Origin: Candidatus Omnitrophota bacterium
Lineage (GTDB): Bacteria > Omnitrophota > Gorgyraeia > JAFGGP01
DNA: 64,000 nt
Reading direction: 5' to 3'
NCBI GenBank assembly: GCA_016930485.1
Contig: JAFGGP010000011.1
Span: 51,196 to 115,195, forward strand
A model generated the notes under the pieces. That model worked only from the letters and a program-made list of their open reading frames with translations, did not search any database and was not told the DNA's origin. Shown here in pieces: positions 8,912 to 63,774 of the stretch (the stretch's first letter is position 1; every line of letters starts with the position of its first letter). The position numbers and the translations under genes were made by a program.

Positions 8912-8912
8912 T

Positions 8913-22067: not shown

Positions 22068-22628
22068 ATGAACTTCTTGTCTGATGTAAAGAACCAGGAA
22101 AGCACCGCGCATATCAAGGGCGAAAGAATATACCTGCGCGAAATCAACGTTTCTGACGTGAATGAACGTTATCTCGGCTGGATGAATGATTCGGAGGTCA
22201 CGCGGCATTTGCTGTGTGATGCTGAAAAATGGACGTTAGGAAAACTTAAAAAGTATGTAAAAAAGATGAAAAAGGATCCCAACTCTATATTTTTTGGGAT
22301 ATTTCTTAATGCGAATGAAACACATATAGGGAATTTAAAAATCGGTTCGATAGACTACAGGAACAACTTTGCGGATATAGGCCTACTTATTGGGGAAAGA
22401 ACAATGTGGGGCCAAGGATATGCTTCCGAGGCGATAAGATTAGCGGTCGATTTTTCCTTTAATACACTAAATCTTCATAAGTTGACTGCTAGTGTGCTTT
22501 CAATCAATATAGGTTCTGTAAGGGTTTTTCAAAAGTGCGGCTTCTCTATCGAGGGCAAAAGAGAAAAACAGTATTTTTATGATGGGGATTATCAGGATAG
22601 TATTTTATTCGGAATTATCAAAAAATGA
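22068..22628 (+). CDS. GNAT N-acetyltransferase (candidate PseH)
   Basis: 186 aa. Acetyl-CoA binding motif QGYASEAIRLAVDFSF and a RimL/PseH-like size. Positioned between the cytidylyltransferase fusion and pseG. Confidence 0.55.
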   Translation: MNFLSDVKNQESTAHIKGERIYLREINVSDVNERYLGWMNDSEVTRHLLCDAEKWTLGKLKKYVKKMKKDPNSIFFGIFLNANETHIGNLKIGSIDYRNNFADIGLLIGERTMWGQGYASEAIRLAVDFSFNTLNLHKLTASVLSINIGSVRVFQKCGFSIEGKREKQYFYDGDYQDSILFGIIKK

Positions 22629-35727: not shown

Positions 35728-35777
35728 GACACACGGATTTGGTTACGGACAAGGACGTTTCCTGAAAAGGAGCCATA

Positions 35778-36983
35778 GTGCAAGAACGCATTAAACTGTT
35801 ATGTATCTGCAATGACCTGGCTATGGGGGGGATCCAGAAACTCCTGGTCACCACGGCCTCTGTTTTAAACAGGGATTTTTTTGATATTACGGTTTGTTCC
35901 ATAGGGAGCGATGTGACACTGGCTAAGGAGTTGGAAGATCTCGGTGTCAAGATTATTGCGTTAGGCCGAAGGTGTAAAATCTATAATATTCTTATTGCGG
36001 GGGATCTGTTTGACATCATAAGAACAACGAAGCCCCACATCGTGCATACACATTCATTCTACTCCAATTTTCACGGCAGGCTCGCGGCCTTTTTTTTAGG
36101 AGTTCCCTGCATCGTCGCAAGCGAACACGGGACCTATTCCAGCCGCAAGGGGCTGCGGCACAGACTGCTGGATTTGTGTTTGTCCGCCGTTTCCGACCGC
36201 GTTATTGCGGTATCACGTGCGGTGAAGAATTTTCTGGTCCAGGAAGAACATATTCCAGAGAAGAAAATCAGCGTTATCTATAACACCTTGGATTTCACAA
36301 AGATGGTTTCTCGCGATAGGGCCGTTGCACGGAAAGAGTTTCAATGGGAGGCCTCTGCCGTCTTATTGGGGCATGTGGGCACGTATACACCGACCAAGGG
36401 ACAGGATATAGCTATCGAGGTAATGAATCGCATCGTCCGCGATATCCCTCAGGCCTGCCTCATTCTGGTTGGGGCTGATCCAGTAAGGTATCGGAAGGTG
36501 CTTTCGGAGAGGGTGAGAGAACTGGGGCTGACCGGGAAGGTGCAGTTTTTTGACCGGGTAGATGATATGACCCTTTTTCTGAGCGCCCTCGATCTTTTTT
36601 TGTTCCCCTCTGCTACAGAGGGGTTTGGTCTTGCTGTTCTCGAGGCAGCCGCGATGGGAGTCCCGGTTGTCGCCTATGCTACCGAGGGAATACAGGAGAT
36701 ATTCGAAGACACCAGGGGCGTTTATCTGGTTTCGGAGAGAAGTCCCGAAGCGATCTCACACGCGACAAAAACGGTTATTTACAATATCGAACAGGCACGG
36801 GTCGATGCACTTCTGGTCAAGGAACATGTCAGAGAGAAATTTGCTCCAGGGATTTTTGCCGGCCAGCTAGAGAAACTCTACACGGATATTTTAACAGCGA
36901 AGGGCGTTGCGGTATTGCCGAAGGAATCGGTCTCCCGGTCGGAGCCAGCCCTTACCCAAACCTTTACCCGGAAGCCATCATGA
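35778..36983 (+). CDS. GT4-family glycosyltransferase
   Basis: GTG start after an AAAAGGAG RBS. C-terminal E-x7-E region FPSATEGFGLAVLEAAAMGVPVVA. Confidence 0.75.
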   Translation: MQERIKLLCICNDLAMGGIQKLLVTTASVLNRDFFDITVCSIGSDVTLAKELEDLGVKIIALGRRCKIYNILIAGDLFDIIRTTKPHIVHTHSFYSNFHGRLAAFFLGVPCIVASEHGTYSSRKGLRHRLLDLCLSAVSDRVIAVSRAVKNFLVQEEHIPEKKISVIYNTLDFTKMVSRDRAVARKEFQWEASAVLLGHVGTYTPTKGQDIAIEVMNRIVRDIPQACLILVGADPVRYRKVLSERVRELGLTGKVQFFDRVDDMTLFLSALDLFLFPSATEGFGLAVLEAAAMGVPVVAYATEGIQEIFEDTRGVYLVSERSPEAISHATKTVIYNIEQARVDALLVKEHVREKFAPGIFAGQLEKLYTDILTAKGVAVLPKESVSRSEPALTQTFTRKPS

Positions 36984-39857: not shown

Positions 39858-39868
39858 GGAAAAATAGC

Positions 39869-42231: not shown

Positions 42232-42252
42232 AAAGGGACAGAGAAACTCGAT

Positions 42253-51764: not shown

Positions 51765-54029
51765 ATGAAAAACGATAACACCCGTCCAATCAAAGTGCTT
51801 TGCATCGTACCCTATTCAACCGAAGGGGCCAGCAACCGATATCGGATAGAGCAGTATCTTCCTTTTCTTCGGGAGAGAGGCATCGAGTGCACCCTCAGTG
51901 CATTTGTCAGCCGGCGTTTTTTTTCTATCCTCTATAAAGAAGGAAACGCGCCCCGGAAACTCTGGTATTTTTTAAAGGGCGTTATCAGGCGTATATATGA
52001 TGTATTGCGGGTGCATGCATACGATGTGGTTATCATACACCGCGAGGCATGCCCGTTCGGCCCGCCCGTGTTCGAACGGTTACTCTCGTTTTTTAAAAAA
52101 CCGATTATCTATGATTTTGACGATGCCATCTATCTTCCGAACTATGATCCGGCAAACCGCCTGTACAGTTTTTTTAAATACCCGGCAAAGACCAGAAAAA
52201 TCATCAGGCTTAGCAGTCATGTCATAGTGGCGAATCATTTCCTGAAGCGCTTTGCCGAACAGCACAGCCCCCGCGTTACCGTTATACCTACCTGCGTCGA
52301 CACCGAGAGGTATGCCAGGAGGGGCGGGGAGGCGAAAGGCAAAAAACCGGTAATCGGCTGGGTCGGCTCAAAGACGACCGCGCCGTATCTTACATTGCTT
52401 TACCCTGTACTGCAGCGGTTGGCCAGGGAGTGCGATTTTATCTTTCGGGTTGTGGGCGCATCCGCGCCGATCGTGATCCCGGGGGTTACGGTAGAAAATA
52501 TTCCGTGGTCTCTGGAGAGCGAGTGGGCTTATTTTTCGTCTCTCGATATCGGCGTCTATCCGCTTATCAATGATGAGTGGGCCCGGGGGAAGGCGGCGTT
52601 TAAGGCGATCCTCTATATGTGCGCCGGCATCCCGGTTGTTGCCTCGGGCGTGGGCATGAATGCGGAGGTGGTCAAAGACGGCGAAAACGGTTTTCTTGCC
52701 TCAAGCGCAGATGAATGGTACGAAAAGCTCCTCAGACTTGTACAGGATGAATCACTGCGCAGGAGATTTGCCGAGAGGGGGCGGGATACCGTCGAAAGAC
52801 GCTTTTCCCTGGCGGTTAACGCGCCGTTATTCGCGGATATTATCAGGAACGTGCGCATGCCTGAGAAAACAAACGGGAGGGTCCGCGTGCTTCACCTGAT
52901 TACCGACCTCGATATCGGAGGGACGCCTATCGTGTTAAACGCCCTGCTGGAACACCCCGCCTTTTCCTGCTACGACATATATGTAGGCAGCCTCAAGAGC
53001 CGCTCGGTCATGAGCGTTGCCGATCAGATAGAATCGCGGGGGACGCGCGTCATCTTTTTTGATGCCTATCACTTCAATACACCGCTTATTTTCTGGCGGC
53101 TTTACCTGTTTTTAAGGGATTACCGGATCGACATTATACATTCATGGCTCTTTCACGCGAATATACTGGGCAGGATATGCGGGTGCCTTGCCGGCGTCAA
53201 GGCCGTTATCTCGACCGAGCTGGCGATAGATTTGCAAAAGGGGCCGGTGCGGGTATTTTTGGACAAGGTAACCTCCGCGTTGAGCACGGCGATTATAACA
53301 AATGCCCGGGCGGTCAAGAAGGCCTTGGTACAAAGAGAGGGCATTGATCCCGAGAAGATCACAGTCATTCACAATGGTATCGATTTTCGCCAGTTTCATG
53401 ATACCGGTGCCCGCGAGATAGTGCGAAGTTATCTGGGGTTCAAAAAAGACGATATCGTTCTTATTACCGTAGCCCGACTCCATCCGGTTAAAGGACACGT
53501 ATATCTTATCGATGCGGTCAAGAGGCTTCGTCCGCATATCCCGCGTCTTACCCTGCTTTTTGTCGGTGACGGCCTGTATCGCCGGCACATAGAAAGGAAG
53601 GTGCGCAGGGAGCGGTTGTCAGGGGCCGTGATCTTTGCGGGCGTTGCCCACGACGTAACCTCTTTCTTAGACGCCGCTGATATATTCGTGCTACCCTCCT
53701 TGGAGGAGGGATTTCCCGGGTCTATTCTTGAGGCGATGGCTATGGAAAAGCCGGTTATTGCCTCGCGTATCGGCGGGATACCCGAGATGATCGAGGACGG
53801 CAGGGAAGGGCTGCTGGTCGCACCGCGCGATATCACCGGCCTCGAAGACGCCGTAAGAAAGATAATAGAGGATGAGCATTTTGCGCACGAAATCACCGGT
53901 CATGCCCGCAGGAAGGTCGAACGATTTACTATCGAGTCTATGGCACGGAATATAGAAAAACTGTATGAACAAAACACACGAAAACCCAGGGAGGCGCAGC
54001 ATGATGAGCCCGTTGCATATCACCGTTAA
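51765..54029 (+). CDS. Tandem two-domain GT4 glycosyltransferase (754 aa)
   Basis: Two consecutive GT-B/GT4 modules. The first ends at about ...ERGRDTVERRFSL; the second begins with RVRVLHLITDLDIGGTP and has its E-x7-E region at EEGFPGSILEAMAMEKPVIAS. Confidence 0.7.
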   Translation: MKNDNTRPIKVLCIVPYSTEGASNRYRIEQYLPFLRERGIECTLSAFVSRRFFSILYKEGNAPRKLWYFLKGVIRRIYDVLRVHAYDVVIIHREACPFGPPVFERLLSFFKKPIIYDFDDAIYLPNYDPANRLYSFFKYPAKTRKIIRLSSHVIVANHFLKRFAEQHSPRVTVIPTCVDTERYARRGGEAKGKKPVIGWVGSKTTAPYLTLLYPVLQRLARECDFIFRVVGASAPIVIPGVTVENIPWSLESEWAYFSSLDIGVYPLINDEWARGKAAFKAILYMCAGIPVVASGVGMNAEVVKDGENGFLASSADEWYEKLLRLVQDESLRRRFAERGRDTVERRFSLAVNAPLFADIIRNVRMPEKTNGRVRVLHLITDLDIGGTPIVLNALLEHPAFSCYDIYVGSLKSRSVMSVADQIESRGTRVIFFDAYHFNTPLIFWRLYLFLRDYRIDIIHSWLFHANILGRICGCLAGVKAVISTELAIDLQKGPVRVFLDKVTSALSTAIITNARAVKKALVQREGIDPEKITVIHNGIDFRQFHDTGAREIVRSYLGFKKDDIVLITVARLHPVKGHVYLIDAVKRLRPHIPRLTLLFVGDGLYRRHIERKVRRERLSGAVIFAGVAHDVTSFLDAADIFVLPSLEEGFPGSILEAMAMEKPVIASRIGGIPEMIEDGREGLLVAPRDITGLEDAVRKIIEDEHFAHEITGHARRKVERFTIESMARNIEKLYEQNTRKPREAQHDEPVAYHR

Positions 54030-54282
54030 TATCTTAATCGGCATTATAGTCGGTTTTTTCGCGGATCTGTTTTCCCTGCAGCGGGTCCCTCTGGGTGTGA
54101 TTGCCTTCATGCTGGTCGGCGTCGCGGGTAGTTTTGCAGGGGAGTTTATTGTCAGATTGCTGATAGAGCACGGAAAACTGCTTCCCCTGTTCTACAGCAA
54201 ACATTTTATCGTTATAGAAAATGCCCTCTCGGCATGTATTTTTGTGTATCTCTTTAACCTTATAAAATGGGACTATAGATGA
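54001..54282 (+). CDS. Small GlsB/YeaQ/YmgE-like (transglycosylase-associated) membrane protein
   Basis: 93 aa, three Gly-rich helices (ILIGIIVGFFADLF...VIAFMLVGVAGSFAGEFIV) resembling the YeaQ/YmgE family. Overlaps the end of the upstream GT. Confidence 0.4.
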   Translation: MMSPLHITVNILIGIIVGFFADLFSLQRVPLGVIAFMLVGVAGSFAGEFIVRLLIEHGKLLPLFYSKHFIVIENALSACIFVYLFNLIKWDYR

Positions 54283-55052
54283 AGTTGTATTATAGGGGTT
54301 TACGGCGACTTTTTTTTCGAAAGAACGCGATAATGATTATTGCCGTTCTTGTGCTTTTTGGTATCGCGCACATCCCGGTTACCGAAAAATACGGCGTTAA
54401 TTTCACCTATTACCAGAGGACCATGCCGCTTTACGAAAAGGCGGTGCATTTTATCTCCCGGCATCTCTTATATCGGAGATTGGCGCGTGAGATTACCCTG
54501 CAGGCGACTACTCCCGAAGAGGCCCTCGAGGCTATTTTAGAGTGGATGCGCGACAACATCCATAACGGGATTCCGCAGGGATTGCGGGTGTGTGATGATC
54601 ATATAGCCAGTATTATTATCAGGGGCTATGGGGCCGACGATCAGATTGTGGATGTCTTTTGTGTGCTCTCTACCTACAGCGGCATGCGGGCATCGATGTA
54701 TAAACTTCCGAAATCGGCCGATGGCACATCTTTTCGGGTTGCCGCTATTGTTGAGGTAGACGGCCTCTGGAGGCTTGCCGATCCGAATTATCATCTGATC
54801 TTCAGAGACGAACGTGGAGATCTCATGACATTGAATACCCTTATTGGCGATCCCCACAGCATTGAGAGGTCGCCGTCCCTGGAGGCGCTCCCGGGAGCAA
54901 AAGAGCCTTATCTTATGTATTTTCAATATATTAAGCCCGTCGGCGAAATTAAAACAGTCAGGGCCGAACTGCAGATTCCGTTGAGGCGTTTGCTGTTTGA
55001 GATACGAAAGGCGTTCCGGCTGGAGGACAATCCACCCCTCTTTGTCGGGTAG
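54279..55052 (+). CDS. Hypothetical N-terminally membrane-anchored protein with a weak transglutaminase-like fold signature
   Basis: One TM helix (IMIIAVLVLFGIAHI). Downstream, ...VEVDGLWRLADPNYH resembles the His/Asp region of transglutaminase-like domains, but the canonical Cys position is GAD. Function unknown. Confidence 0.3.
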   Translation: MKLYYRGLRRLFFRKNAIMIIAVLVLFGIAHIPVTEKYGVNFTYYQRTMPLYEKAVHFISRHLLYRRLAREITLQATTPEEALEAILEWMRDNIHNGIPQGLRVCDDHIASIIIRGYGADDQIVDVFCVLSTYSGMRASMYKLPKSADGTSFRVAAIVEVDGLWRLADPNYHLIFRDERGDLMTLNTLIGDPHSIERSPSLEALPGAKEPYLMYFQYIKPVGEIKTVRAELQIPLRRLLFEIRKAFRLEDNPPLFVG

Positions 55053-55062
55053 AAAGGAAACC

Positions 55063-56229
55063 ATGCTTACTATCTGTTCCCCGCAACTGAGCATTGCCCA
55101 TGATGCACATCTAGGGGGCGCGGTGACCGACAGGGAGTTTTTATGCCATCTTGCAAAGAGGGGCTATCATATTAAGGTGTTGCTTCCCGAGGGGGAAAGC
55201 TACAAGTCTGCCGACAATGTGGAGATTATTTTCCTGAAACGGAATATGTTGCTCGATCATTCGTATACGGCCAATTTTTTCTTTCTGAAGACACTTGACC
55301 GGGTGCTCTCCGAGGGTCGTGTAGATATCCTTAGGGTTCATTCACCCTATAGCATCGGTATCGGGGCGAGCCTGTTGAAGACGTTTCGCAGGGAGATGCC
55401 TCCGCTGTGGTTTTCGTTTCTTCATCTCGAAAAGCGATGGGACTGGCACATTCTTGATAAGACGTTACCGTTTTTTGCCGATGGTATTACGGCCTTGAGC
55501 GAAGACACTATGGGCGACTTAAGACGGCGTTTTCCTTATTTGGATAAAAAGATCACGCGGGTTACCCCCTTGGGAATAGACACGGATGTGTTTTTCCGCA
55601 TCGAGAACCCCGTGCTTCACGAACTCAACGGGATTGATACCGCAAAACCGATCGTCCTTTTTGTCGGGTCTCTGATAAAGCGGAAAGGCGTTGACCTTCT
55701 TTTGGAAAGCTGGCCCAAGATAAAAACAATCTGCCCCGATGCCCAGCTGGTTATTGTCGGACAGGGGCCTTCGGAATTTATGATAACGGAATATCTCGAC
55801 AGATATCCGGATATGTACCATGTGCGTTTTTTGACACAGGAACGCCTGGTGCACTATTACTCTACCGCCAGCGTCTTTGCCTTTCCCTCTCGAAAGGAGG
55901 GATTTGGTATGGTAGTGGGGGAGGCCATGAGCTGCGGTGTGCCGGTCGTTGCTTTCCGGACCCACGGGGTGCAGAGGCTGGTTGAGGATGGGCGAAGCGG
56001 ATACATGGTAGATCCTGAGGATGTGGATGTGTTTGCCGAGAAGGTCGGCCATCTCATTCGCCATCCGGAAGATGCCATCCAGATGGGCAACCGGGCACGA
56101 CGGCGCATCGCGAAGGAATTTTCCTGGGACGTTACCATTCTCGAGGTGGAACAGTTTATGACACAGCTTCTCGCACGCCGGAGATACAGGTCGTCACAAT
56201 CGCAGAAGGCATATAGCGCCGCACCATGA
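55063..56229 (+). CDS. GT4-family glycosyltransferase
   Basis: AAAGGAAA RBS. FPSRKEGFGMVVGEAMSCGVPVVA E-x7-E motif. Confidence 0.75.
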   Translation: MLTICSPQLSIAHDAHLGGAVTDREFLCHLAKRGYHIKVLLPEGESYKSADNVEIIFLKRNMLLDHSYTANFFFLKTLDRVLSEGRVDILRVHSPYSIGIGASLLKTFRREMPPLWFSFLHLEKRWDWHILDKTLPFFADGITALSEDTMGDLRRRFPYLDKKITRVTPLGIDTDVFFRIENPVLHELNGIDTAKPIVLFVGSLIKRKGVDLLLESWPKIKTICPDAQLVIVGQGPSEFMITEYLDRYPDMYHVRFLTQERLVHYYSTASVFAFPSRKEGFGMVVGEAMSCGVPVVAFRTHGVQRLVEDGRSGYMVDPEDVDVFAEKVGHLIRHPEDAIQMGNRARRRIAKEFSWDVTILEVEQFMTQLLARRRYRSSQSQKAYSAAP

Positions 56230-57179
56230 CAAACGCCTCTGTACCGTTACATATCGGAGTTATTATAGGCACTCGCAACCGAGTGGCCGCGCTGTTGACG
56301 TGCGTCTCTTCGCTCGTGAGTCAGACGAGAAGACCCGATGAGGTAATCATTATTGATGACGGTGCAATGGATGATACCGGTATCAGAAGGCTCTTCGCCC
56401 GGCACTCGATACGGTATCGGTACGTAAAAAAAGAAGATCACTTCGGCCTGGTCTATTCGCGGAATATGGGTGCGCGGCTGCTTACCTCGGATATCGCCCT
56501 TTTTCTGGACGACGATGTTATTCTGGACCGGGGCTATATCGAGGCGATCCTCAGGGTCTATCAGCAGGATACGGATGGCACGGTGGGGGGCGTCGGCGGA
56601 GTCCTGGTAGACAGAAGGGCAAGCTACGCAAAGAGGCTATTCCTGTGGATTTTCGGACTCTACCGTTTTCACAAAGACGGCCTGATTCTACCGAACGGTT
56701 TCGGGGTTCTTATAAGGGATATCGATCAGATAGAACGCGTGGATTGGCTGAGCGGATGCAATATGAGTTTCCGCAGGGCGGTGGTCGAAGAGTTCCGGTT
56801 TGACGAATCCCTGAGAGACAACGGATGGGGGGATGACAAGGATTTCAGTTACCGGGTAGCGCGGAGGTATACCTTGCTGGCAACGCCGCATGCACGCGTC
56901 GTGCACCTTGAGGATAAAGAAGGCAGGGTTACGAAGAGGGAGTTCGGTTTTATCGAGATATACCATCAGTATGTTTTTTTTCGCAATCATATGTCCAAAT
57001 GCCCCGGTACCTGGCTTGCCTTTTGGTGGGCGCTTACGGGACTTCTTTTGAAGAACCTCCTGACGGCACGCCTCAATCAGGCAGGAGGCAACCTGAGCGC
57101 TATGGCGGCTATCGTAAAAGAAACTATCAGGAAAGGAGACGGCACAGATGTATCTTGCAACACTCAGGCGATACTTTAA
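56226..57179 (+). CDS. GT2-family glycosyltransferase
   Basis: IGVIIGTRNRVAALLTCVSSL...VIIIDDGAMDD GT-A DXD region. Confidence 0.7.
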   Translation: MTNASVPLHIGVIIGTRNRVAALLTCVSSLVSQTRRPDEVIIIDDGAMDDTGIRRLFARHSIRYRYVKKEDHFGLVYSRNMGARLLTSDIALFLDDDVILDRGYIEAILRVYQQDTDGTVGGVGGVLVDRRASYAKRLFLWIFGLYRFHKDGLILPNGFGVLIRDIDQIERVDWLSGCNMSFRRAVVEEFRFDESLRDNGWGDDKDFSYRVARRYTLLATPHARVVHLEDKEGRVTKREFGFIEIYHQYVFFRNHMSKCPGTWLAFWWALTGLLLKNLLTARLNQAGGNLSAMAAIVKETIRKGDGTDVSCNTQAIL

Positions 57180-58467
57180 AAAAAGCTGGCTGGGCATTCC
57201 CCTCGGCGTATGGCTTATTGCGGGTATCGCGCTTGCTCTGAAAGTCACATTTTTAATGACATATCAGAACGGCCGGTTTTTGAAGGAGGTGGTACGCGCG
57301 AGCGACGGACACCATTATTATGCCCTGGCAAAGAATATGCTGACGGGCAAGGGATACGTCTTATGGAACCACCCCAGTTCCTATCGCCCACCGCTCTATC
57401 CGCTTATACTGGTCCTGTCATTTTTTACCTTCGACTACAGCATTGTTGCGGTACGCTTTATCCAGACGGTTCTTTCAGCGGTGACCTGTCTTATGATGTA
57501 CATATTAGGAAAAGAGAGTGTCAATGAACGTATCGGCTTTCTTTCGGCACTCTTCACTATGCTCTATTTTCGGTTTACCTTCTGGTCGATTTACATACTT
57601 ACTGAAACCCTGTATATATTTTTATCGGTGCTTACCATTACATTTCTCATATCTGCGCTCAAGGGCACCTCACGTTTTCGTTTTTTTATGACGGGCATTC
57701 TGTGGGGAATTACCTTTTTATGCCGCCCCGAATTCGGAGGTTTTCTGGTCTTTGTGCTCGGATATATGGCGCTCCGGGAGGGAATTCTGACAAAGGCCTT
57801 TATGCAGCGGGCCTCCCTGTTGGTTATCGGTACCTTGATTGCTATTGCACCCTGGGCTATCCGAAACGCCCTCGTACACCACGCCTTTATCCTGGGTACC
57901 ACGACATTCGGGACCCAGCTGTACGGCGGCAATAGCCCTTACACGACAGGGGGTACCGACGGGTGGGCATCGGTTGGTGTGGATTATGATTTCCCACCCG
58001 GCATTAAACCAAACAGAATGCCCGAGGTCGAGTGTCAATCTATTTTAGTCAAAGAGGCGCTGCAGTACATCCGGGAGAATCCCGGCCGCATCGTACGGAT
58101 ATGGCCGCGGAAACTGCTCAATTTTTACCGCATCTATCCTTCAACCGCCTCGTTGCGGCACAAAATTTTTATGGGGTTTCAGGATGGTTTTCTCTATGTG
58201 TTTACCTTGATCGGTACCGTCGTTGCTTTTCGTCGGTATCCGCTCGCGCGGCTCTTTTTCCTGTACGGGGTGTTCTATACCATTCTTATCACGCTGCTTA
58301 TCTCCGAGCTGCGCTATCGTTTTTACATTACGCCGTTTTGGATCGTGCTTGCGGCAGTGGGCTTTGATGCGGTTTCGGGTCTCTTCAGAAAGAAAAAGAA
58401 GGCCCGAGCGAATACCTCTTCGTTTCATGTCATGACGGCGAATGAGGCTGTAGAGATCTCCAGATGA
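57148..58467 (+). CDS. GT-C fold polytopic membrane glycosyltransferase (PMT_2/ArnT-like)
   Basis: About 11 TM helices. First loop SDGHHYYALAKNM resembles the GT39/PMT_2 loop-1 motif. Confidence 0.5.
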   Translation: MYLATLRRYFKKSWLGIPLGVWLIAGIALALKVTFLMTYQNGRFLKEVVRASDGHHYYALAKNMLTGKGYVLWNHPSSYRPPLYPLILVLSFFTFDYSIVAVRFIQTVLSAVTCLMMYILGKESVNERIGFLSALFTMLYFRFTFWSIYILTETLYIFLSVLTITFLISALKGTSRFRFFMTGILWGITFLCRPEFGGFLVFVLGYMALREGILTKAFMQRASLLVIGTLIAIAPWAIRNALVHHAFILGTTTFGTQLYGGNSPYTTGGTDGWASVGVDYDFPPGIKPNRMPEVECQSILVKEALQYIRENPGRIVRIWPRKLLNFYRIYPSTASLRHKIFMGFQDGFLYVFTLIGTVVAFRRYPLARLFFLYGVFYTILITLLISELRYRFYITPFWIVLAAVGFDAVSGLFRKKKKARANTSSFHVMTANEAVEISR

Positions 58468-58514
58468 GTTATATGTGTATGTAACGGTCCTGTAAGCAGG
58501 GCCTGGGAAAAAAT

Positions 58515-60686
58515 ATGCACAATGAAGCGGCCATGATTATCGGCGTTCTTCCCGAGCAGGGAGGCAGTATTACGTCCTACAGTTTTTCAGGTCAGGATGA
58601 GCGGCTGGTTACCTACTATCTCGGTTCGTATGCCCGCTCCTTTGATAAGACATATTTTTTCTCCTACAGGAAGGAATCAAAGGACCTGCCCGCCCGGTGC
58701 GAGCTCGCGGACAATAAGTGGGGGCTGCACCGGTGGCTCTATGGACCTCTCCTTCCGATTCTTTATAAAAGGCACTTTAGACGATGTTCGCTGTTGCGCG
58801 TGATGCAGGCAACGGGAGAGGTGCCGGCCCTTCTTGCCAAGGCATTGTTCAGGGTGCCGGTCGTGGCTACGTACGGGTATCGTTATGACCTGCATGCGCG
58901 TTTAGAGGGACACTGGTTCAGGTCGCTTCTCTTCAGACTGAGAGAGCGCATTGCGCTGCCTCGGTTTGATGCCGTTATCATTACCAATAGCGAGACATAC
59001 AGGCATGTATCGCGCTATCTTCCTCCGGAGAGGATATGGTATATCCCTAACGGGGTCGATACCGCCCTTTTTCGACCCGATCCGGAAGGGGAAAAGCAGA
59101 GTAAGGTAAAAACGGTTATTGCTGTGGGGGGATTAAGACGGCAGAAAAATTATCCCCTTTTACTCGAGGCTATTTCACGGCTGGGGAGAGGGGTAAAGCT
59201 TAAGATTATCGGAGACGGGACATTGCTGGAGGGGCTCAGGACACATGCCCGGCAGCTTAAGGTGGATGTTGAATTTACCGGGAGCATACCTCATGAAAAA
59301 CTGCCCCCCTACCTTAATCAGGCGGATGTCTTTGTAATGAGTTCTTATGCCGAGGGACATCCAAAGGCCCTCCTTGAGGCGATGAGCTGCGGCTTGCCCT
59401 GTGTCGGTGTCGCTATTGAGGGGATCAAAGATGTGATTACCGATGGCGTCAACGGTCTTGTGTGTCAGGCAGAGCCAGGAGATCTGGCGCGGGCGATCGC
59501 CCGTTTACTGGATGACAAAGCGCTTTCGCAGAGGCTGGGCGAGGAGGCCCGCCGGTCGGTACAGGAGTGCTATGAACTTACTGATCTCATCGATCAGGAG
59601 ATTGCACGCCACAGGGATTTAATCGCCTTACAGACGCGCGGCACCACATCTTCCTGGATAGCGGCTTTACGGGGTCGCATTGCACGGATTAACGGGGTCC
59701 GCGATCTTATTCATAAAGTACGGGAAAAAATCCTCAACGGGGTCTGGTCTGTTTTTACGATACGGGGGATGAAGGTGCGCGCCCTCATCAGAAAAAGAAA
59801 GCAGCACGTTTCACAGAAAAGGGCGCTGCGATTTCCCGATACGCTGCACATTGAGCTGACCAACAGGTGCAACCTTAACTGTGCCATGTGTTCGCACGAC
59901 AGGATGAAACGGATCAGAAAAGATATGGATTTTCATCTCTTTAGGTGCCTGATCGACGAATGCAGGAATTACCCGGTAGATGCGATATCGCTTTACTATT
60001 TCGGCGAGGCCCTCCTTTACCCCCACCTTCTAGAGGCTATCCGGTATGCGCATCAGACACTGGACGGTGTTCATACACGCATCCGTACCAATGCACAGCT
60101 TCTTACCGAGCGCAGGACGAGGGAGCTTTTGGCCTCGGGATTGACGGCCCTTGAGTTTTCTCTCGAGGGTTACACCAGGGAGGTCTATGAGACACTCATG
60201 AAGGGGGCATCTTACGAAGAGACCCTCGAGCGCCTCGGCAGGTATTTCCGTCTGAAGAAGGAACTGGGCATCCGCCAGCAGAACGCTATCGTGACCGTGG
60301 CCATGGATGAAACACTACCGGCGATGAAGCAGTTTGTACGCGCCTGGTCACGATTCGCGCCGGTAAGCGTTACCAGGCTCCATTCGGGTTTCGTGACAGG
60401 AGAGTCTTCTCTGCCGGGAAAAACGGCGTATCAACGCACTATACCATGCCCCGAGCCCTTTTATCACGCAATGGTTCTTTCTAACGGCGAAGTAACGTTT
60501 TGCTGCTGCGATGTCGAAGGGGCGCTCTCCATAGGCAATATCACAAGACACAATCTGCATACTATCTGGAACAGTCGGCGCGCAGAGGAGATTCGGCGCT
60601 TACACCGTGAGTGTGCGTTCGACACCCTTCCTATCTGCAGGCAGTGTTCGAACGGCATTCTCCGCCAGGGGGTCATCAGACGATGA
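58515..60686 (+). CDS. Fusion protein: N-terminal GT4 glycosyltransferase plus C-terminal radical SAM/SPASM domain
   Basis: aa 1-~380: GT4 (SSYAEGHPKALLEAMSCGLPCVGVA E-x7-E). aa ~430-723: radical SAM (TNRCNLNCAMC = CxxxCxxC; YFGEALL) followed by a Cys-rich SPASM tail (CPEPF...FCCCDVEG...CRQCSNG). One uninterrupted ORF. Confidence 0.8.
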   Translation: MHNEAAMIIGVLPEQGGSITSYSFSGQDERLVTYYLGSYARSFDKTYFFSYRKESKDLPARCELADNKWGLHRWLYGPLLPILYKRHFRRCSLLRVMQATGEVPALLAKALFRVPVVATYGYRYDLHARLEGHWFRSLLFRLRERIALPRFDAVIITNSETYRHVSRYLPPERIWYIPNGVDTALFRPDPEGEKQSKVKTVIAVGGLRRQKNYPLLLEAISRLGRGVKLKIIGDGTLLEGLRTHARQLKVDVEFTGSIPHEKLPPYLNQADVFVMSSYAEGHPKALLEAMSCGLPCVGVAIEGIKDVITDGVNGLVCQAEPGDLARAIARLLDDKALSQRLGEEARRSVQECYELTDLIDQEIARHRDLIALQTRGTTSSWIAALRGRIARINGVRDLIHKVREKILNGVWSVFTIRGMKVRALIRKRKQHVSQKRALRFPDTLHIELTNRCNLNCAMCSHDRMKRIRKDMDFHLFRCLIDECRNYPVDAISLYYFGEALLYPHLLEAIRYAHQTLDGVHTRIRTNAQLLTERRTRELLASGLTALEFSLEGYTREVYETLMKGASYEETLERLGRYFRLKKELGIRQQNAIVTVAMDETLPAMKQFVRAWSRFAPVSVTRLHSGFVTGESSLPGKTAYQRTIPCPEPFYHAMVLSNGEVTFCCCDVEGALSIGNITRHNLHTIWNSRRAEEIRRLHRECAFDTLPICRQCSNGILRQGVIRR

Positions 60687-62023
60687 ATATAGCGTTTATG
60701 ACTGAGTACTTTTCTCCGTTTGTGATCGGCGGCGCAGAGCTGAGCGCCTACGCGCTTGCCCGGGAGCTGACCGGGCGGGGGCATTCGGTGACCGTCGTTA
60801 CCCCCAACTACGGTGCCCGCGAGTACGAGGAGATCGGCGGAATCAGGATATACCGCATCGCCTTTCCGCAGAAACTGAAACCCGGCGACCAGGCCCGCTC
60901 GTTCTTCATGCACAGCGTATTCATGCAGCTGTACTTCGCGCGGTGTCTTGTCCGGATCTGCCGCCGTCATAAGATAGAAGTTATACACGCGCAACACACC
61001 AATGCCATTATCCCGGCGTTTGTAGCGGCAGCATTTACCCGGTGCCGTTCGGTGGTGACGCTCAGGGATTTTCATTCGATTACCGCCGGCAGCGTGTTGT
61101 GGCTTAACCGGCGTTCCGGCGAAGAGAACATTCAGGCTGCCGGCGGATATTTCCGGAGCGCCTTTCGATTTCAGAAATTTTTCAATCCCGATCAAAACGG
61201 TTTCGCCCGCCTAAAGGCGTGGTGCGATATCATATATCGGTGGCCGGATCTCCGGTTACGCCAGTTTTGTCTGCGCCGTTTCGATACGGTTATCGGGGTG
61301 AGCGAGAACCTCCGGGCGCTCTATTTCGAGAACGGTTTTGCCTGCCTCAAAGGCCGTTTCCGGGTTCTCTATAATATACCACCTGACTGTTCGCGGGTTC
61401 CCTATAACCCGGAGGGAATAAAGAGGAAGTATGTCATCCCGGAGGATGCCCGCGTCGTATTGTGGGCGGGCAGGCGGACGCCTGCCAAGGGGTTCGATGT
61501 TTTTCTTAGGGGTATCCCGCTGGTGCGGGACCGCCTATCGGATGTCTGTTTCGTCGTGGCGGGGAGAGGCCTTGCGTGCGATGAATCATTACAGAGTATA
61601 AGCGCCATCCGAGATCTGGGCGTTCTTCCAAATCAGGAGATTCTGAAACTGATGACAATCTCTGATGTGGTCGTTGTCCCGTCGCAGTGGGACGAGCCCC
61701 TCAGCAGAACCATGATAGAGGCCCTCTCGATGGGCAGACCGGTTATTGGTACCTCTGCCGGGGGGACACCTGAGCTGATCAGTGACGGGGAAAACGGTTT
61801 TTTGATCAGGCCGGGTGATGCCGGGGATCTGGCGGAAAAAATAGCACTCATTATCAGTGACCGCGAACTGCAAAAAAGACTGTCGCTTCGGGCAATCGAG
61901 TCAATAAGACGCATATGCAGTCCGGAGCGCATTACCGATGAGGTCCTCGCTGTATACCGGGGCGATCAGGTAGTGCAAAGGTCTCAGCCTGAGACGGCAT
62001 CTTCTTATATCGGTAGATTATGA
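60683..62023 (+). CDS. GT4-family glycosyltransferase
   Basis: ATGA overlap with the upstream gene. MNIAFMTEYFSPFVIGGAE N-terminus and a SQWDEPLSRTMIEALSMGRPVIGT E-x7-E region. Confidence 0.75.
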   Translation: MNIAFMTEYFSPFVIGGAELSAYALARELTGRGHSVTVVTPNYGAREYEEIGGIRIYRIAFPQKLKPGDQARSFFMHSVFMQLYFARCLVRICRRHKIEVIHAQHTNAIIPAFVAAAFTRCRSVVTLRDFHSITAGSVLWLNRRSGEENIQAAGGYFRSAFRFQKFFNPDQNGFARLKAWCDIIYRWPDLRLRQFCLRRFDTVIGVSENLRALYFENGFACLKGRFRVLYNIPPDCSRVPYNPEGIKRKYVIPEDARVVLWAGRRTPAKGFDVFLRGIPLVRDRLSDVCFVVAGRGLACDESLQSISAIRDLGVLPNQEILKLMTISDVVVVPSQWDEPLSRTMIEALSMGRPVIGTSAGGTPELISDGENGFLIRPGDAGDLAEKIALIISDRELQKRLSLRAIESIRRICSPERITDEVLAVYRGDQVVQRSQPETASSYIGRL

Positions 62024-63774
62024 AACAGGGATATCTTTTAAAAGAGCGGCTTCTGCTTATCGCGATTCTTATGGGCGCGCTTTTTGTGCGGGTCTATAAA
62101 GGGGGAGATCACTTTACCGGAGGAGATGAGGCCGACCGGGTGCTGTATGCCCTGCAGTTATTTCGTGGCAGCCTGTTTAGCATCGACCCTCTGTATAATC
62201 CTGTCGGAAGGCTCGTTATCTACTCCTACAGCTGGATACATATGGTGCTTTTTTCTATCGTTATCGGCCTGGCCTCTTTATTAAGGCTGCCCCTTAACGA
62301 GCTGGTTTTTTCGCTGCCCAATGTTATAGAGGGTGTGGCATCGGTGTATCTGCTTTATCTCCTGGTAAAACGGCTGTCGAATGTCCGCTCAGGGCTCCTT
62401 GCCGCACTGCTTTTAGCCATTAACCCGTTACACGTAGCCTGGTCACGTGATACCAACGAAGGGGCAATATCGCTGTTTCTTTTCATGCTTATTATCTATG
62501 CCTTTAGCCGATACTTTAGTAATCCTTCACCACAAAAAGGATGGTTTGCCTCAACCTGTTTTGGCATGTATCTGGTGCAAGATGTCAGGGCCTATTTTTT
62601 AATACCCCTTATCCCAGCATTGGGTATCTGTGAATATTATGCGACAGAAAAACGGACCGATACTGTGTCAAAAAAACAGATGCTCAAGGATGTCTTTGGA
62701 AAGCTCCTCCGGAAGGAAATTGTGCTAATGCCGCTGCTTTTTATAGGGTTTTATCTGCTTCTCCATGCAGGCTTTGTCCTGGCGGGGCATCCGGAAAAAG
62801 GGTTTTTCGGCCGCATACTCGTTAAAGACATGAACCGCTATCCTGTCTGGGGGTTTCATGGGCTGGCATTTGTGAGGGCCCTGTGGCCGAATAACGGTCC
62901 GGGCCTTGCCCTTTTTGCCCCCCTCGTTCTTCTCTATGGCATGTACCGCTCACCCGCCAATCCGCGGACAGCATTTGTAGTTCTGTGGGCATTGTTTCTT
63001 GCCCTGCCGTTTTTATTTGTTCTGGATCCTTCAACCCCTGGCATGGAGACAGAGATGCTGCAGACCTTTGTCCCGATTATTATTTTAACCGCTGTGTTTC
63101 TTGAGGAGTCCGTTAGAAGGATTACTGCCCCGCGGAGATCCCGCCTTGCCCGCGTTCTTATCCGTGTCGTGCCGATGACCATCGGTGTCTTTATCGTAGT
63201 GACGACATTTCTGGGCATGTATCTTATGGTGTATTCGGTCGAAATAAAGGGTTGGCGCCTGAGGCCTGTTTTGAGCAGTGCCCACCCCAATTACGGCATA
63301 AAGAGCGCCGGTGTCTACCTCAGGGAGAGGGCGGATAGGTATGCGCGCATTTATTCGGAAGAGGAGCTTACGAATATGATGTTTTATGCCAATAGGATAT
63401 CGTCGAACTGGAATTATAAGGACAGGGATTTTTTGCTTGTGCCGAAAATCTCTCTGCGCTACCGGGAACGGCGGTATCCTCCGTCTGAGTACCTGAGAGA
63501 TAATTATTTTCATGTGGCCGAGATTCGCTCGCAGGGCAAAGGCGTTTTGGATATTTTCGCAAAAGAGAAATTGCCGTTCGAAGTACTGGATGTCGAGACC
63601 TGTGACCGGCTCTTTGACCGGAAATACGCCAACCTTCATGAGTTGGTGAGTGCGCCGTTTTGCTCGACCCAGATCGCGCAGAATCGGCTGCATTTTGAAA
63701 AAATGGACGAGGTATATCAAAAATGGATTACGGCGGTCAAGGAGGATGTAAAGGCACAGGAAACTATCCGGTAA
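62020..63774 (+). CDS. GT-C fold polytopic membrane glycosyltransferase (ArnT/PMT_2-like)
   Basis: At least 12 TM helices. First periplasmic loop GGDEADRVLYALQLF is a DE...Y motif as in ArnT/GT39. A C-terminal soluble domain of about 180 aa follows. Confidence 0.55.
   Translation: MKQGYLLKERLLLIAILMGALFVRVYKGGDHFTGGDEADRVLYALQLFRGSLFSIDPLYNPVGRLVIYSYSWIHMVLFSIVIGLASLLRLPLNELVFSLPNVIEGVASVYLLYLLVKRLSNVRSGLLAALLLAINPLHVAWSRDTNEGAISLFLFMLIIYAFSRYFSNPSPQKGWFASTCFGMYLVQDVRAYFLIPLIPALGICEYYATEKRTDTVSKKQMLKDVFGKLLRKEIVLMPLLFIGFYLLLHAGFVLAGHPEKGFFGRILVKDMNRYPVWGFHGLAFVRALWPNNGPGLALFAPLVLLYGMYRSPANPRTAFVVLWALFLALPFLFVLDPSTPGMETEMLQTFVPIIILTAVFLEESVRRITAPRRSRLARVLIRVVPMTIGVFIVVTTFLGMYLMVYSVEIKGWRLRPVLSSAHPNYGIKSAGVYLRERADRYARIYSEEELTNMMFYANRISSNWNYKDRDFLLVPKISLRYRERRYPPSEYLRDNYFHVAEIRSQGKGVLDIFAKEKLPFEVLDVETCDRLFDRKYANLHELVSAPFCSTQIAQNRLHFEKMDEVYQKWITAVKEDVKAQETIR

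What the first reader, a model, noticed from the sequence alone, without database searches (positions are those of the whole stretch)
58515..60686. In-frame fusion of a GT4 glycosyltransferase to a radical-SAM/SPASM enzyme
One 723-aa ORF carries a complete GT4 module (E-x7-E motif) and then a complete radical SAM core (TNRCNLNCAMC) plus a Cys-rich SPASM tail. SPASM/twitch radical SAMs are best known as peptide/protein maturases (anSME, PqqE) or as sugar-oxidising enzymes (BtrN). A covalent fusion to a glycosyl-transferring domain inside a polysaccharide locus implies the radical chemistry is coupled to glycosyl transfer. That could be anaerobic oxidation or epimerisation of a sugar on a lipid-linked intermediate, or modification of the acceptor. 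I am not aware of a characterised member with this architecture.
Basis: partly seen in the sequence, partly recalled or inferred. Interest (0 to 1): 0.9.

Follow-up and report, generated by a model that had tools for sequence, protein, structure and literature searches.

The report
Glycosyltransferase fused to BtrN-like radical enzyme
One gene in a large cell-surface sugar-polymer locus of an uncultured anaerobe (Omnitrophica) joins an ordinary sugar-adding enzyme to an oxygen-sensitive radical enzyme whose closest studied relative oxidises a sugar-like ring, which points to an uncharacterised way of editing surface sugars.

Summary
ORF 58515..60686 (+) encodes 723 aa with a complete GT4 module (E-x7-E at 280-288) and a complete radical-SAM core (CNLNCAMC, 452-459). 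All Pfam hits are above their curated cut-offs.

The fusion is not an artefact:
- A 47%-identical orthologue (P0002), on 7 contigs from several samples, has the same architecture in a syntenic locus.
- A third syntenic locus (L019) carries the two halves as adjacent genes with an ATGA overlap.

One correction: the Cys-rich tail is not a full SPASM domain. None of 152 family members has CX2CX5CX3C. The conserved cysteines C645/C663/C708/C711 align without gaps to the four auxiliary-cluster ligands of BtrN. BtrN is also by far the best solved relative, by profile (E 2.7e-38) and by fold. The tail is therefore a BtrN-like "twitch" module, which favours sugar-directed chemistry over peptide maturation.

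The same rSAM family is also fused to GT30, GT2 and cytidylyltransferase modules. It occurs six times on the Brachyspira hyodysenteriae LOS plasmid, and a second time, unfused and next to another GT4, in this window.

The most likely role is anaerobic C-H chemistry on a sugar (epimerisation or oxidation to a keto group), coupled to the GT4 transfer step. The exact reaction is unknown.

Verdict: new variant of a known kind; interest 0.6.

The parts
58515..60686 (+). Full ORF, 723 aa: GT4 + helical connector + radical-SAM core + twitch domain. The likely true start is M7 at 58533.
58533..59609 (+). GT4 (GT-B, retaining) glycosyltransferase module, aa 7-365.
   Evidence: Pfam PF13439 + PF00534. 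50% identical over its full length to the stand-alone GT4 of L019. PDB relatives are BshA, PglA and PglH/WlaC. pLDDT is above 90.
59352..59378 (+). E-x7-E motif (EGHPKALLE, aa 280-288) of the GT4 C-terminal domain.
   Evidence: Identical in P0002 and in the L019 GT4.
59610..59831 (+). Helical connector, aa 366-439. It is the N-terminal extension of the rSAM module. It contains an in-frame ATG (M419, 59769) preceded by GGGGG.
   Evidence: The stand-alone rSAM P0131 carries the same extension. It is the least conserved region (24% identity to P0002). pLDDT is low at 371-410.
59832..60434 (+). Radical-SAM core, aa 440-640.
   Evidence: PF04055. G497-E498 and N526 are 99-100% conserved across the family. 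Matches BtrN/DesII by profile and fold.
59868..59891 (+). CX3CX2C motif CNLNCAMC (C452, C456, C459), the ligands of the SAM-binding [4Fe-4S] cluster.
   Evidence: conserved in 151 of 152 members.
60435..60683 (+). Twitch domain, aa 641-723. C645, C663, C708 and C711 are the predicted four ligands of one auxiliary [4Fe-4S] cluster. C664 is an extra conserved Cys, and D666 is also conserved.
   Evidence: Ungapped alignment to BtrN C169/C187/C232/C235. Conservation is 99-100% for the four ligands, 93% for C664 and 97% for D666. No CX2CX5CX3C motif.
60683..60686 (+). ATGA overlap: the stop codon of the fusion overlaps the start codon of the downstream GT4 (60683..62023).
51765..63774 (+). Conserved operon block: double GT4 (754 aa), an ORF with no Pfam hit, GT4, GT2, GT-C (PMT_2), the fusion, GT4, GT-C (PMT_2/STT3).
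   Evidence: Pfam. The same order occurs around P0002 (L001) and around the split pair (L019). Gene overlaps of 4 nt are.
34669..35727 (+). Second, unfused member of the same twitch rSAM family (352 aa), directly upstream of another GT4.
   Evidence: PF04055 + PF13186. 324 bits against the family HMM, 32% identical to the fusion's C-half, 48% identical to the rSAM half of the GT30-rSAM fusion P0277.
35778..36983 (+). GT4 gene immediately downstream of the second rSAM.

Best explanation
The gene encodes a real bifunctional cytoplasmic enzyme of a surface-glycan assembly line.

N-terminal half: a catalytically intact retaining GT4 glycosyltransferase that adds a sugar from an NDP-sugar to a growing, probably lipid-linked, glycan.

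C-terminal half: a BtrN-like radical-SAM enzyme with one SAM-cleaving [4Fe-4S] cluster and one fully Cys-ligated auxiliary [4Fe-4S] cluster in a twitch domain.

Inferred mechanism:
1. The radical module reductively cleaves SAM.
2. The 5'-deoxyadenosyl radical abstracts a hydrogen atom from a sugar carbon.
3. One of two outcomes follows:
   (a) A hydrogen atom is returned on the opposite face from the extra conserved Cys664, giving epimerisation as in HygY/NeoN, with the auxiliary cluster re-reducing the thiyl radical.
   (b) An electron passes to the auxiliary cluster, giving a keto-sugar as in BtrN.

The sugar acted on is the one the attached GT4 uses or has just installed. This would explain why the two genes are adjacent and translationally coupled in one lineage and fused in two others.

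Shown here: the domain identities, the cluster-ligand pattern, the fused/split orthology and the glycan-locus context.

Inferred: the sugar substrate, the type of reaction, and whether the radical step comes before or after transfer.

The confidence of 0.65 applies to 'a real bifunctional GT4 + sugar-directed twitch radical-SAM enzyme'. Within that, I put epimerisation at about 0.4, dehydrogenation at about 0.3, and other radical sugar chemistry at about 0.3.
For: Domains and motifs:
- All four Pfam domains are above their curated cut-offs.
- The motifs are present.
- The SAM-binding residues G497-E498 and N526 are conserved.

BtrN-like identity of the C-half:
- Single-sequence search against PDB: top hit BtrN, E 1e-10, covering both the core and the tail.
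- Family profile: BtrN E 2.7e-38, 135 bits; the next best is GDGT-MAS at 65 bits, and anSME scores 43 bits.
- Foldseek search with the pLDDT-91 model: BtrN first (E 1.3e-15, TM 0.75-0.81 normalised to BtrN), DesII second.
- The four auxiliary-cluster ligands of BtrN align without gaps to C645/C663/C708/C711, which are 99-100% conserved. D666/G674/W685/R694 align to BtrN D190/G198/W209/R218.
- BtrN's chemistry and its Cys4-ligated auxiliary cluster are described in PMC10337720.

The fusion is real and under selection:
- P0002 is 49% identical across all modules (GT4 48.5%, rSAM core 51%, twitch 58%). It occurs on 7 contigs from at least 3 samples, in a syntenic locus.

Functional coupling:
- L019 has an orthologous GT4 (50% identity) and an orthologous rSAM (47% identity) as adjacent genes with an ATGA overlap, in the same gene order.

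Sugar association of the family:
- It is independently fused to GT30 (P0277), GT2 (P0287), a cytidylyltransferase (P0213) and a sugar C-methyltransferase domain (P0189).
- P0277 lies in a NeuB/CMP-sugar locus.
- Six paralogues sit among GT and rhamnose genes on Brachyspira plasmid pBHWA1 (PMC4267127).
- A second copy lies next to a GT4 in this window.

The extra Cys as a possible H-atom donor:
- C664 is 93% conserved, whereas BtrN has Phe at that position.
- A twitch sugar epimerase becomes a dehydrogenase on loss of one Cys (HygY; title cited in the reference list of PMC10991966).
- NeoN uses Cys249 as the H-atom donor (PMC10991966).
- EpeE uses Cys223, and its auxiliary cluster is proposed to re-reduce the thiyl radical (PMC13012085).
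Against: - There is no biochemical data for any member of this rSAM family.
- Identity to BtrN is only about 20%, and about 75 residues of the core do not align.
- More distant stand-alone members lie in non-glycan contexts: DsrE/rubredoxin/QueH, and phospholipid genes. The family is therefore not uniformly sugar-directed.
- The closest GT4-only relative, P0004, works beside GT-C and GT2 genes with no rSAM at all. The GT4 step does not intrinsically need the radical step.
- AlphaFold gives no confident inter-domain geometry (pTM 0.60; connector pLDDT 45-65).
- I could not test whether C664 corresponds in position to the H-donor Cys of HygY or NeoN, because their sequences and structures were not available.
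- Three of the six Brachyspira paralogues lack this Cys.
- The window's own copy comes from a single contig.
Confidence: 0.65

Rival explanations
1. The C-terminal half is a SPASM-type peptide or protein maturase (like anSME, PqqE or MftC). It would modify a protein, for example a sulfatase or a glycoprotein acceptor, rather than a sugar. The GT4 would then glycosylate that modified peptide or protein.
For: - Pfam SPASM hit.
- The best NCBIfam hits are named metalloenzyme or peptide maturases, such as TIGR04317, TIGR04311 and mycofactocin MftC.
- SuiB, anSME and SkfB appear in the fold-search list.
- An arylsulfotransferase lies next to P0002, and a sulfatase-family gene lies next to P0277.
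- A capsule cluster in C. jejuni HS:19 is annotated with an anSME-like rSAM beside a GT and a sulfotransferase (PMC8743553).
Against: - All NCBIfam hits are far below their cut-offs (88 bits against 380, and similar) and cover only the generic core.
- 0 of 152 members have the CX2CX5CX3C motif needed for the second auxiliary cluster.
- BtrN outscores anSME 135 bits to 43.
- The window contains no sulfatase, sulfotransferase or small precursor-peptide gene, and the genes are packed with 4-nt overlaps.
- The fusion partners elsewhere are all sugar or nucleotide-sugar enzymes.
Confidence: 0.1
2. The radical module modifies a lipid rather than a sugar, for example the polyprenyl carrier or a glycolipid made by the GT4. 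This would resemble lipid-modifying radical-SAM enzymes such as GDGT-MAS/Tes.
For: - GDGT-MAS is the second-best PDB hit by sequence profile (65 bits) and NF045702 (Tes) appears among the weak NCBIfam hits for relatives.
- One stand-alone member (P0285) sits beside CDP-alcohol phosphatidyltransferase, Lnt and PgpA.
- GT4 enzymes include glycolipid synthases such as PimA.
Against: - The GDGT-MAS match covers only the generic core (positions 30-161), at half BtrN's score.
- In the fold search it ranks 42nd or lower, with TM 0.45.
- The twitch tail matches BtrN residue for residue.
- The locus is dominated by nucleotide-sugar and GT genes, not lipid genes.
Confidence: 0.08
3. The fusion is an artefact of sequencing, assembly or gene calling. 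The real genome would have two separate genes, as in L019. Alternatively, the fusion is real but the rSAM part is made separately from the internal ATG at M419.
For: - The window's exact protein is known from one contig only.
- A split arrangement exists in L019.
- An in-frame ATG preceded by GGGGG lies at aa 419, leaving an N-terminus about as long as that of stand-alone P0121.
Against: - P0002 has the same uninterrupted architecture on 7 contigs from several samples.
- Frame 0 is open throughout, while frames 1 and 2 carry stops.
- There is no homopolymer in aa 371-395.
- Residues 396-418 are conserved in frame with P0002 and P0131, which share the WSxFTxxG motif.
- GC and GC3 are uniform across the ORF.
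- Internal initiation would add a second product. It would not remove the fused one.
Confidence: 0.05
4. The radical-SAM half is not a catalyst of glycan chemistry. Instead it would be a redox- or oxygen-sensing Fe-S module that switches the GT4 on only under anoxic conditions.
For: - Two oxygen-labile clusters are tethered to a GT by a flexible helix.
- The host is an uncultured Omnitrophica MAG.
- The GT4 orthologue P0004 can work without the rSAM.
Against: - All catalytic SAM-binding signatures are conserved at 99-100% across 152 members (CX3CX2C, the G-E motif, N526).
- The module exists as a separate enzyme-sized protein in L019, and as a stand-alone gene in this same window.
- The multiple paralogues in Brachyspira look like diversified catalysts.
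Confidence: 0.04

Closest known systems
BtrN (2-deoxy-scyllo-inosamine dehydrogenase, butirosin pathway; PDB 4M7S/4M7T)
   Same: - It is a compact radical-SAM core followed by a twitch domain with one Cys4-ligated auxiliary [4Fe-4S] cluster.
- All four ligands (C169/C187/C232/C235) and D190/G198/W209/R218 align without gaps to C645/C663/C708/C711 and D666/G674/W685/R694.
- It is the best sequence, profile and fold match.
- It acts on a carbohydrate-like secondary alcohol (PMC10337720).
   Different: - Identity is only about 20%, and about 75 extra residues in the core do not align.
- An extra conserved Cys (C664) sits where BtrN has Phe188.
- There is a 70-residue N-terminal helical extension.
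- It is fused to a GT4 and sits in a cell-surface glycan locus, not an aminoglycoside gene cluster.
- It is not an orthologue of BtrN.
HygY and NeoN (twitch radical-SAM sugar epimerases of hygromycin B and neomycin biosynthesis)
   Same: - They are twitch-type radical-SAM enzymes acting on sugar C-H bonds.
- They rely on an additional Cys as H-atom donor, and loss of that Cys turns HygY into a dehydrogenase (title in the reference list of PMC10991966; NeoN Cys249 in PMC10991966).
- The family here also has one extra conserved Cys beyond the cluster ligands.
   Different: - HygY and NeoN are stand-alone enzymes of antibiotic pathways acting on small pseudo-oligosaccharides.
anSME / PqqE / MftC-type SPASM maturases
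   Same: They share the Pfam clan and the first half-motif CX9-15GX4C. All have a radical-SAM core with a C-terminal Fe-S domain.
   Different: SPASM domains have 7-8 Cys and two auxiliary clusters (PMC9477430). Here CX2CX5CX3C is absent in 152 of 152 members. There is also no peptide or protein substrate gene in the locus.
Other multi-module enzymes built on the same parts: GT30-rSAM (P0277), GT2-rSAM (P0287), cytidylyltransferase-rSAM (P0213; resembles the uncharacterised TIGR04321 'spiro-SPASM' family), and GT2-GT4 fusions (P0003, P0006-P0013)
   Same: The same twitch rSAM family is placed C-terminal to a sugar-handling module. The same GT4 subfamily readily fuses to other glycan enzymes.
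   Different: The partner differs (GT4 here). None of these proteins is characterised. The query scores 47.8 bits against TIGR04321, whose cut-off is 250, so it is not a member.
Radical-SAM array of Brachyspira hyodysenteriae plasmid pBHWA1 (NC_012226.1)
   Same: - Six full-length members of the same family (146-225 bits against the family HMM) have the same twitch Cys pattern.
- They are interleaved with GT, rfbC, rfbF and epimerase genes.
- The gene block is linked to colonisation and virulence in pigs (PMC4267127).
   Different: They are unfused, about 26% identical, and only 3 of 6 keep the extra Cys. They have not been characterised biochemically.

Membership tests
GT4 glycosyltransferases (GT-B fold; Pfam Glyco_transf_4 + Glycos_transf_1) | Both Rossmann-like halves are detected above the curated thresholds. 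| tested here: met
   PF13439 43.5 bits (cut-off 28.5); PF00534 127.5 bits (cut-off 26.4). The AF2 N-half has pLDDT above 90.
GT4 glycosyltransferases (GT-B fold; Pfam Glyco_transf_4 + Glycos_transf_1) | E-x7-E motif in the C-terminal domain. | tested here: met
   EGHPKALLE at 280-288. Invariant in P0002 and in the L019 GT4.
GT4 glycosyltransferases (GT-B fold; Pfam Glyco_transf_4 + Glycos_transf_1) | Glycosyl transfer with retention from an NDP-sugar donor. | not testable with these tools
   Needs an enzyme assay.
Radical SAM superfamily | CX3CX2C cluster motif, and the Radical_SAM domain above threshold. | tested here: met
   C452/C456/C459. PF04055 56.9 bits (cut-off 29.5). Conserved in 151 of 152 relatives.
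Radical SAM superfamily | SAM-binding signatures (GGE-like motif, ribose-binding Asn) and a partial TIM-barrel fold. | tested here: met
   G497 is 100% conserved, E498 99% and N526 100%. The model has pLDDT 91, and its top fold matches are all radical-SAM enzymes.
Radical SAM superfamily | Reductive cleavage of SAM to the 5'-deoxyadenosyl radical. | not testable with these tools
   Needs anaerobic reconstitution and a 5'-dA assay.
SPASM domain (two auxiliary [4Fe-4S] clusters) | Pfam PF13186 hit above threshold. | tested here: met
   49.6 bits (cut-off 21.5). The Pfam model also captures twitch domains.
SPASM domain (two auxiliary [4Fe-4S] clusters) | Seven or eight conserved Cys, including CX2CX5CX3C (definition from PMC9477430). 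| tested here: not met
   The motif is absent in the query and in 0 of 152 family members. Only 4 Cys, plus 1 extra, are conserved.
Twitch domain (one auxiliary [4Fe-4S] cluster) | Three or four conserved Cys in a truncated SPASM-like domain. | tested here: met
   C645, C663, C708 and C711 are 99-100% conserved. They align without gaps to BtrN C169/C187/C232/C235.
Twitch domain (one auxiliary [4Fe-4S] cluster) | Actual binding of exactly one auxiliary cluster. | not testable with these tools
   Needs Fe/S quantification and spectroscopy.
BtrN (DOIA dehydrogenase) orthologue | Closest homology to BtrN over both the core and the twitch domain. | tested here: met
   Profile E 2.7e-38, 135 bits, two stretches. 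Foldseek rank 1.
BtrN (DOIA dehydrogenase) orthologue | Aminoglycoside (2-deoxystreptamine) gene-cluster context, and no H-donor Cys. | tested here: not met
   The locus is a surface-glycan locus. The extra conserved C664 replaces BtrN F188. Identity is about 20%.
anSME (anaerobic sulfatase-maturating enzyme) | Full SPASM domain plus a cognate sulfatase gene. | tested here: not met
   No second-cluster motif. anSME scores 43 bits against 135 for BtrN. There is no sulfatase in the window.
NCBIfam named rSAM families (TIGR04317, TIGR04311, TIGR04321, NF033640) | Score at or above the curated cut-off. | tested here: not met
   Scores against cut-offs: 88/380, 70/400, 47.8/250, 43.4/170. The relatives also fail.
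TIGR04157 (glycosyltransferase associated with rSAM peptide systems in Bacteroidota) | Score at or above the curated cut-off. | tested here: not met
   60.1 bits against a cut-off of 400.

The most novel reading that the evidence does not exclude
This protein and its relatives form an unrecognised class of radical 'glycan-editing' enzymes of primary cell-envelope biosynthesis. The relatives are the split pair in L019, the second copy in this window, the GT30, GT2 and cytidylyltransferase fusions, and the six paralogues on the Brachyspira LOS plasmid.

On this reading, BtrN/HygY-like twitch radical-SAM modules are docked onto glycosyltransferases. They epimerise or oxidise a sugar on the donor or on the nascent lipid-linked chain, without NAD or oxygen. 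This would create rare sugar stereoisomers or keto-sugars in the surface polysaccharides of anaerobes.
Probability: 0.4. Interest if true: 0.8.

Novelty: new variant of a known kind. Interest (0 to 1): 0.6.

Why it matters
So far, radical-SAM sugar chemistry (BtrN, HygY, NeoN, DesII, AprD4, BlsE) is known almost only from antibiotic pathways.

A BtrN-like family that is repeatedly attached to glycosyltransferases in surface-glycan loci would carry this chemistry into cell-envelope biosynthesis of anaerobes. The attachments seen here are fusions to GT4, GT2 and GT30 modules, translational coupling, and tandem paralogue arrays.

This could explain how anaerobes make unusual sugar epimers or keto/amino sugars without NAD-dependent enzymes. 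It also gives a natural fused construct for finding the substrate, because the GT4 half names the step that the radical half is coupled to. The Brachyspira plasmid block, which is linked to colonisation of pigs, provides a cultured and phenotype-linked system carrying the same family.

Tried and rejected
1. Full-length homologue search. It was swamped by GT4-only hits, and only P0001 and P0002 carried both modules.

2. Scans of reference genomes and metagenome contigs using the alignment of the two fusions. They gave only weak partial matches and no further fusion.

3. Contexts of distant stand-alone members (P0280, P0281, P0283, P0285, P0124, P0132). They were heterogeneous or on short contigs. 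They do not support a uniform glycan role and were not used as positive evidence.

4. The closest GT4-only relative, P0004, has no rSAM neighbour.

5. The first full-length alignment (A3) misplaced distant GT4 sequences onto the rSAM half and was discarded. A5 was used instead.

6. The AFDB architecture search was not possible because the library was unavailable.

7. Literature searches for GT-rSAM fusions or glycan-locus twitch enzymes found nothing characterised. The first search was polluted by 'twitching motility'. The HygY paper and the Grell twitch/SPASM review are not held.

8. The sulfatase-maturase idea was rejected for this window, which has no sulfatase or sulfotransferase.

9. The hidden-frameshift idea was rejected.


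Full report
**Observation**

- Pfam finds Glyco_transf_4 (aa 71-184), Glycos_transf_1 (193-347, 127.5 bits), Radical_SAM (446-579, 56.9 bits) and SPASM (645-711, 49.6 bits). All are above their curated cut-offs.
- The quoted motifs are present: EGHPKALLE (280-288), CNLNCAMC (452-459) and C-x12-G-x4-C (645-663).
- Both orthologues begin at the residue matching M7, so the real start is probably 58533.
- The stop codon overlaps the ATG of the next GT4 gene (ATGA at 60683-60686), and the neighbouring genes overlap by 4 nt, so this is a tight operon.

**Is the fusion real?**

The identical protein is in NCBI from a 'Candidatus Omnitrophica bacterium' MAG. It is annotated only as 'glycosyltransferase' and is known from one contig (P0001). 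Independent support comes from two other loci.

- P0002 is 712 aa, 47-49% identical over 99% of the length, and has the same four Pfam domains. It occurs on seven contigs from at least three JGI samples.
  - Identity is even across modules: GT4 48.5%, rSAM core 51%, twitch 58%. Only the connector is low, at 24%.
  - Its locus is syntenic with the window: double GT4, hypothetical, GT4, GT2, GT-C (PMT_2), then the fusion.
- In the window, frame 0 is the only open frame across the junction. The 75-nt stretch between the end of GT4 homology and the start of conserved rSAM sequence has no homopolymer, and GC3 is uniform.

I regard an artefact as unlikely.

**A split version exists**

Locus L019 has the same gene order but carries the two halves as separate genes.

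- The GT4 is 366 aa and 50% identical to residues 7-370 of the fusion.
- The rSAM, P0131, is 343 aa and 47% identical to the C-half.
- The GT4 stop overlaps the rSAM start (ATGA).
- P0131 carries the two N-terminal helices that look like a 'linker' in the fusion. The connector (aa 366-439) is therefore the native N-terminal extension of the rSAM module.

Adjacent, translationally coupled genes in one lineage and a fusion in two others is the classic sign that two proteins work on consecutive steps or as a complex.

**What the C-terminal half is**

The first part is right. The second needs correcting.

- By definition, SPASM domains have 7-8 conserved Cys and two auxiliary clusters, whereas twitch domains have 3-4 Cys and one cluster (PMC9477430).
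- The exhaustive search found 363 representatives at E ≤ 1e-30, mostly 290-350 aa stand-alone proteins.
- In an alignment of 152 of these, the conserved Cys are the three SAM-cluster ligands, C645, C663, C708 and C711 (99-100%), and C664 (93%).
- C665 and C700 are private to this protein, and none of the 152 has CX2CX5CX3C.
- By sequence, the best solved relative is BtrN. The alignment of the tail is ungapped. It places C645/C663/C708/C711 on BtrN C169/C187/C232/C235, and D666/G674/W685/R694 on D190/G198/W209/R218.
- With the family profile, BtrN scores 135 bits (E 2.7e-38). This compares with 65 for GDGT-MAS, 62 for BlsE, 61 for MoaA, 54 for DesII and 43 for anSME.
- An AlphaFold model of the C-half (pLDDT 91, pTM 0.88) has BtrN as its top Foldseek match (E 1.3e-15, TM 0.75-0.81 normalised to BtrN), followed by DesII.
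- No NCBIfam model reaches its cut-off for the query or its relatives, so the family is unnamed.

**Does the family deal with sugars?**

Evidence for:

- Besides GT4, the family is fused C-terminal to a Kdo-transferase-type GT30 (P0277, 779 aa), a GT2 (P0287) and a cytidylyltransferase (P0213). It is also fused N-terminal to a sugar C-methyltransferase domain (P0189).
- P0277 lies among NeuB, CMP-sugar synthetase and UDP-GlcNAc 2-epimerase genes.
- The 36-kb plasmid of Brachyspira hyodysenteriae carries six full-length paralogues (146-225 bits) among GT, rfbC, rfbF and epimerase genes. Presence of that block correlates with colonisation in pigs (PMC4267127).
- The window itself holds a second, unfused member at 34669..35727. 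It scores 324 bits against the family HMM and is 48% identical to the rSAM half of P0277. It lies directly upstream of another GT4 and 3.5 kb from a GT30 gene that is homologous to the N-half of P0277.

Evidence against a uniform role:

- Several more distant stand-alone members sit next to DsrE/rubredoxin/QueH genes or phospholipid genes.
- The nearest GT4-only relative has no rSAM partner.

**Mechanism**

Shown:

- The GT4 is intact.
- The radical-SAM core is intact, with the G-E and Asn signatures conserved.
- There is one predicted Cys4 auxiliary cluster.
- The two modules are genetically coupled.

Inferred:

- The radical module abstracts H from a sugar carbon of the GT4's donor or product.
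- Two outcomes are plausible.
  - BtrN-type two-electron oxidation to a keto-sugar.
  - HygY/NeoN-type epimerisation, in which a Cys thiol returns H to the other face and the auxiliary cluster re-reduces the thiyl radical. This mechanism is described for EpeE in PMC13012085 and for NeoN Cys249 in PMC10991966. The HygY title, in that paper's reference list, states that loss of one Cys unmasks dehydrogenase activity.
- The family has one conserved Cys beyond the cluster ligands (C664, where BtrN has Phe). I therefore lean slightly towards epimerisation. I could not test positional equivalence, and three of the six Brachyspira paralogues lack this Cys.

The full-length AlphaFold model has two confident modules, but the connector is low-confidence (pLDDT 45-65) and pTM is 0.60. 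No fixed interface or channel is supported, so the fusion may act simply by proximity.

**Rivals**

- Peptide or protein maturase. This is disfavoured by the missing second-cluster motif, the dominance of BtrN over anSME, and the absence of any sulfatase, sulfotransferase or precursor gene in the window. Sulfur-related genes do recur next to relatives elsewhere, and that is unexplained.
- Lipid modification. Support is weak.
- Artefact or internal start. See 'Is the fusion real?' above. The in-frame ATG at M419 preceded by GGGGG could add a separate rSAM product, but this is untested.
- Redox sensor. This is unlikely given the conserved catalytic signatures.

**Novelty and score**

The parts are known kinds: GT4 and a BtrN-like twitch radical SAM. 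The sequence is already public. However, I found no description of this architecture, or of any glycan-locus member of this rSAM family.

The fusion itself is rare. Two fused lineages were found among billions of proteins. It is one instance of a recurrent pattern in which this family is attached to sugar-handling modules.

I class it as a new variant of a known kind, with interest 0.6. It is a good, testable lead to radical sugar chemistry in cell-envelope glycans, but it is not categorically new and its chemistry is unresolved.

Noticed in passing
window 34669-36983: A second, unfused member of the same BtrN-like twitch rSAM family (352 aa) lies directly upstream of a GT4. It is 48% identical to the rSAM half of a GT30-rSAM fusion found elsewhere (P0277). 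The window also has a GT30 gene (29665-31155) homologous to the N-half of that fusion.
   Followed up: yes
L019 6147-8275 (Logan SRR22387952 contig): This is a split version of the fusion: an orthologous GT4 (366 aa) and an orthologous rSAM (343 aa) are adjacent genes with an ATGA overlap in a syntenic glycan locus.
   Followed up: yes
L020 (Brachyspira hyodysenteriae WA1 plasmid NC_012226.1) 10855-20028: Six paralogous members of this rSAM family, five of them in tandem, sit among GT, rfbC, rfbF and epimerase genes. The block is reported to correlate with virulence and colonisation (PMC4267127). Only three of the six keep the extra 'CC' cysteine. Lawsonia intracellularis plasmids also carry one member.
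   Followed up: partly
window 51765-54029: A 754-aa ORF carries two complete GT4 modules in tandem (a GT4-GT4 fusion). It is conserved as a 761-aa gene at the same position in the P0002 locus (L001 2535-4820).
   Followed up: partly
window 38068-43934: An Arn-like (lipid A aminoarabinose-type) gene set is present: NAD epimerase/dehydratase, formyltransferase, GT2, a GT-C of the PMT_2/ArnT type, a methyltransferase and a polysaccharide deacetylase. Further GT-C genes lie at 44569, 57148 and 62020, an unusually high number for one locus.
   Followed up: no
window 16931-25564: A nonulosonic-acid (pseudaminic/legionaminic-type) pathway is present: a PseB-like dehydratase, a DegT aminotransferase, a GNAT, NeuB, and a 684-aa fusion of cytidylyltransferase with a class-III aminotransferase (20013-22067). 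One 348-aa ORF (22625-23671) has no Pfam hit.
   Followed up: no
window 4889-16737: Export and assembly genes lie upstream of the glycan genes: an LptD-like protein, two UDP-sugar dehydrogenases, Wzi, a 954-aa Wza-like exporter with four SLBB repeats, and a Wzz-like protein. Two GGDEF diguanylate cyclases sit at 773-3477.
   Followed up: no
L001 12136-13755; L006 2042-4396: Sulfur-related genes flank GT-linked relatives of this rSAM. An arylsulfotransferase lies just after the P0002 fusion. ATP-sulfurylase and a sulfatase-family gene lie just before the GT30-rSAM P0277. B12-binding radical-SAM genes also occur in both loci. The window has no such gene.
   Followed up: partly
window 59764-59771: An in-frame ATG (M419) immediately preceded by GGGGG lies inside the connector. 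It could allow separate translation of the rSAM module.
   Followed up: no
window 54279-55052: A 257-aa ORF between the double GT4 and the next GT4 has no Pfam hit. A hypothetical gene (354 aa) occupies the same position in the P0002 locus.
   Followed up: no
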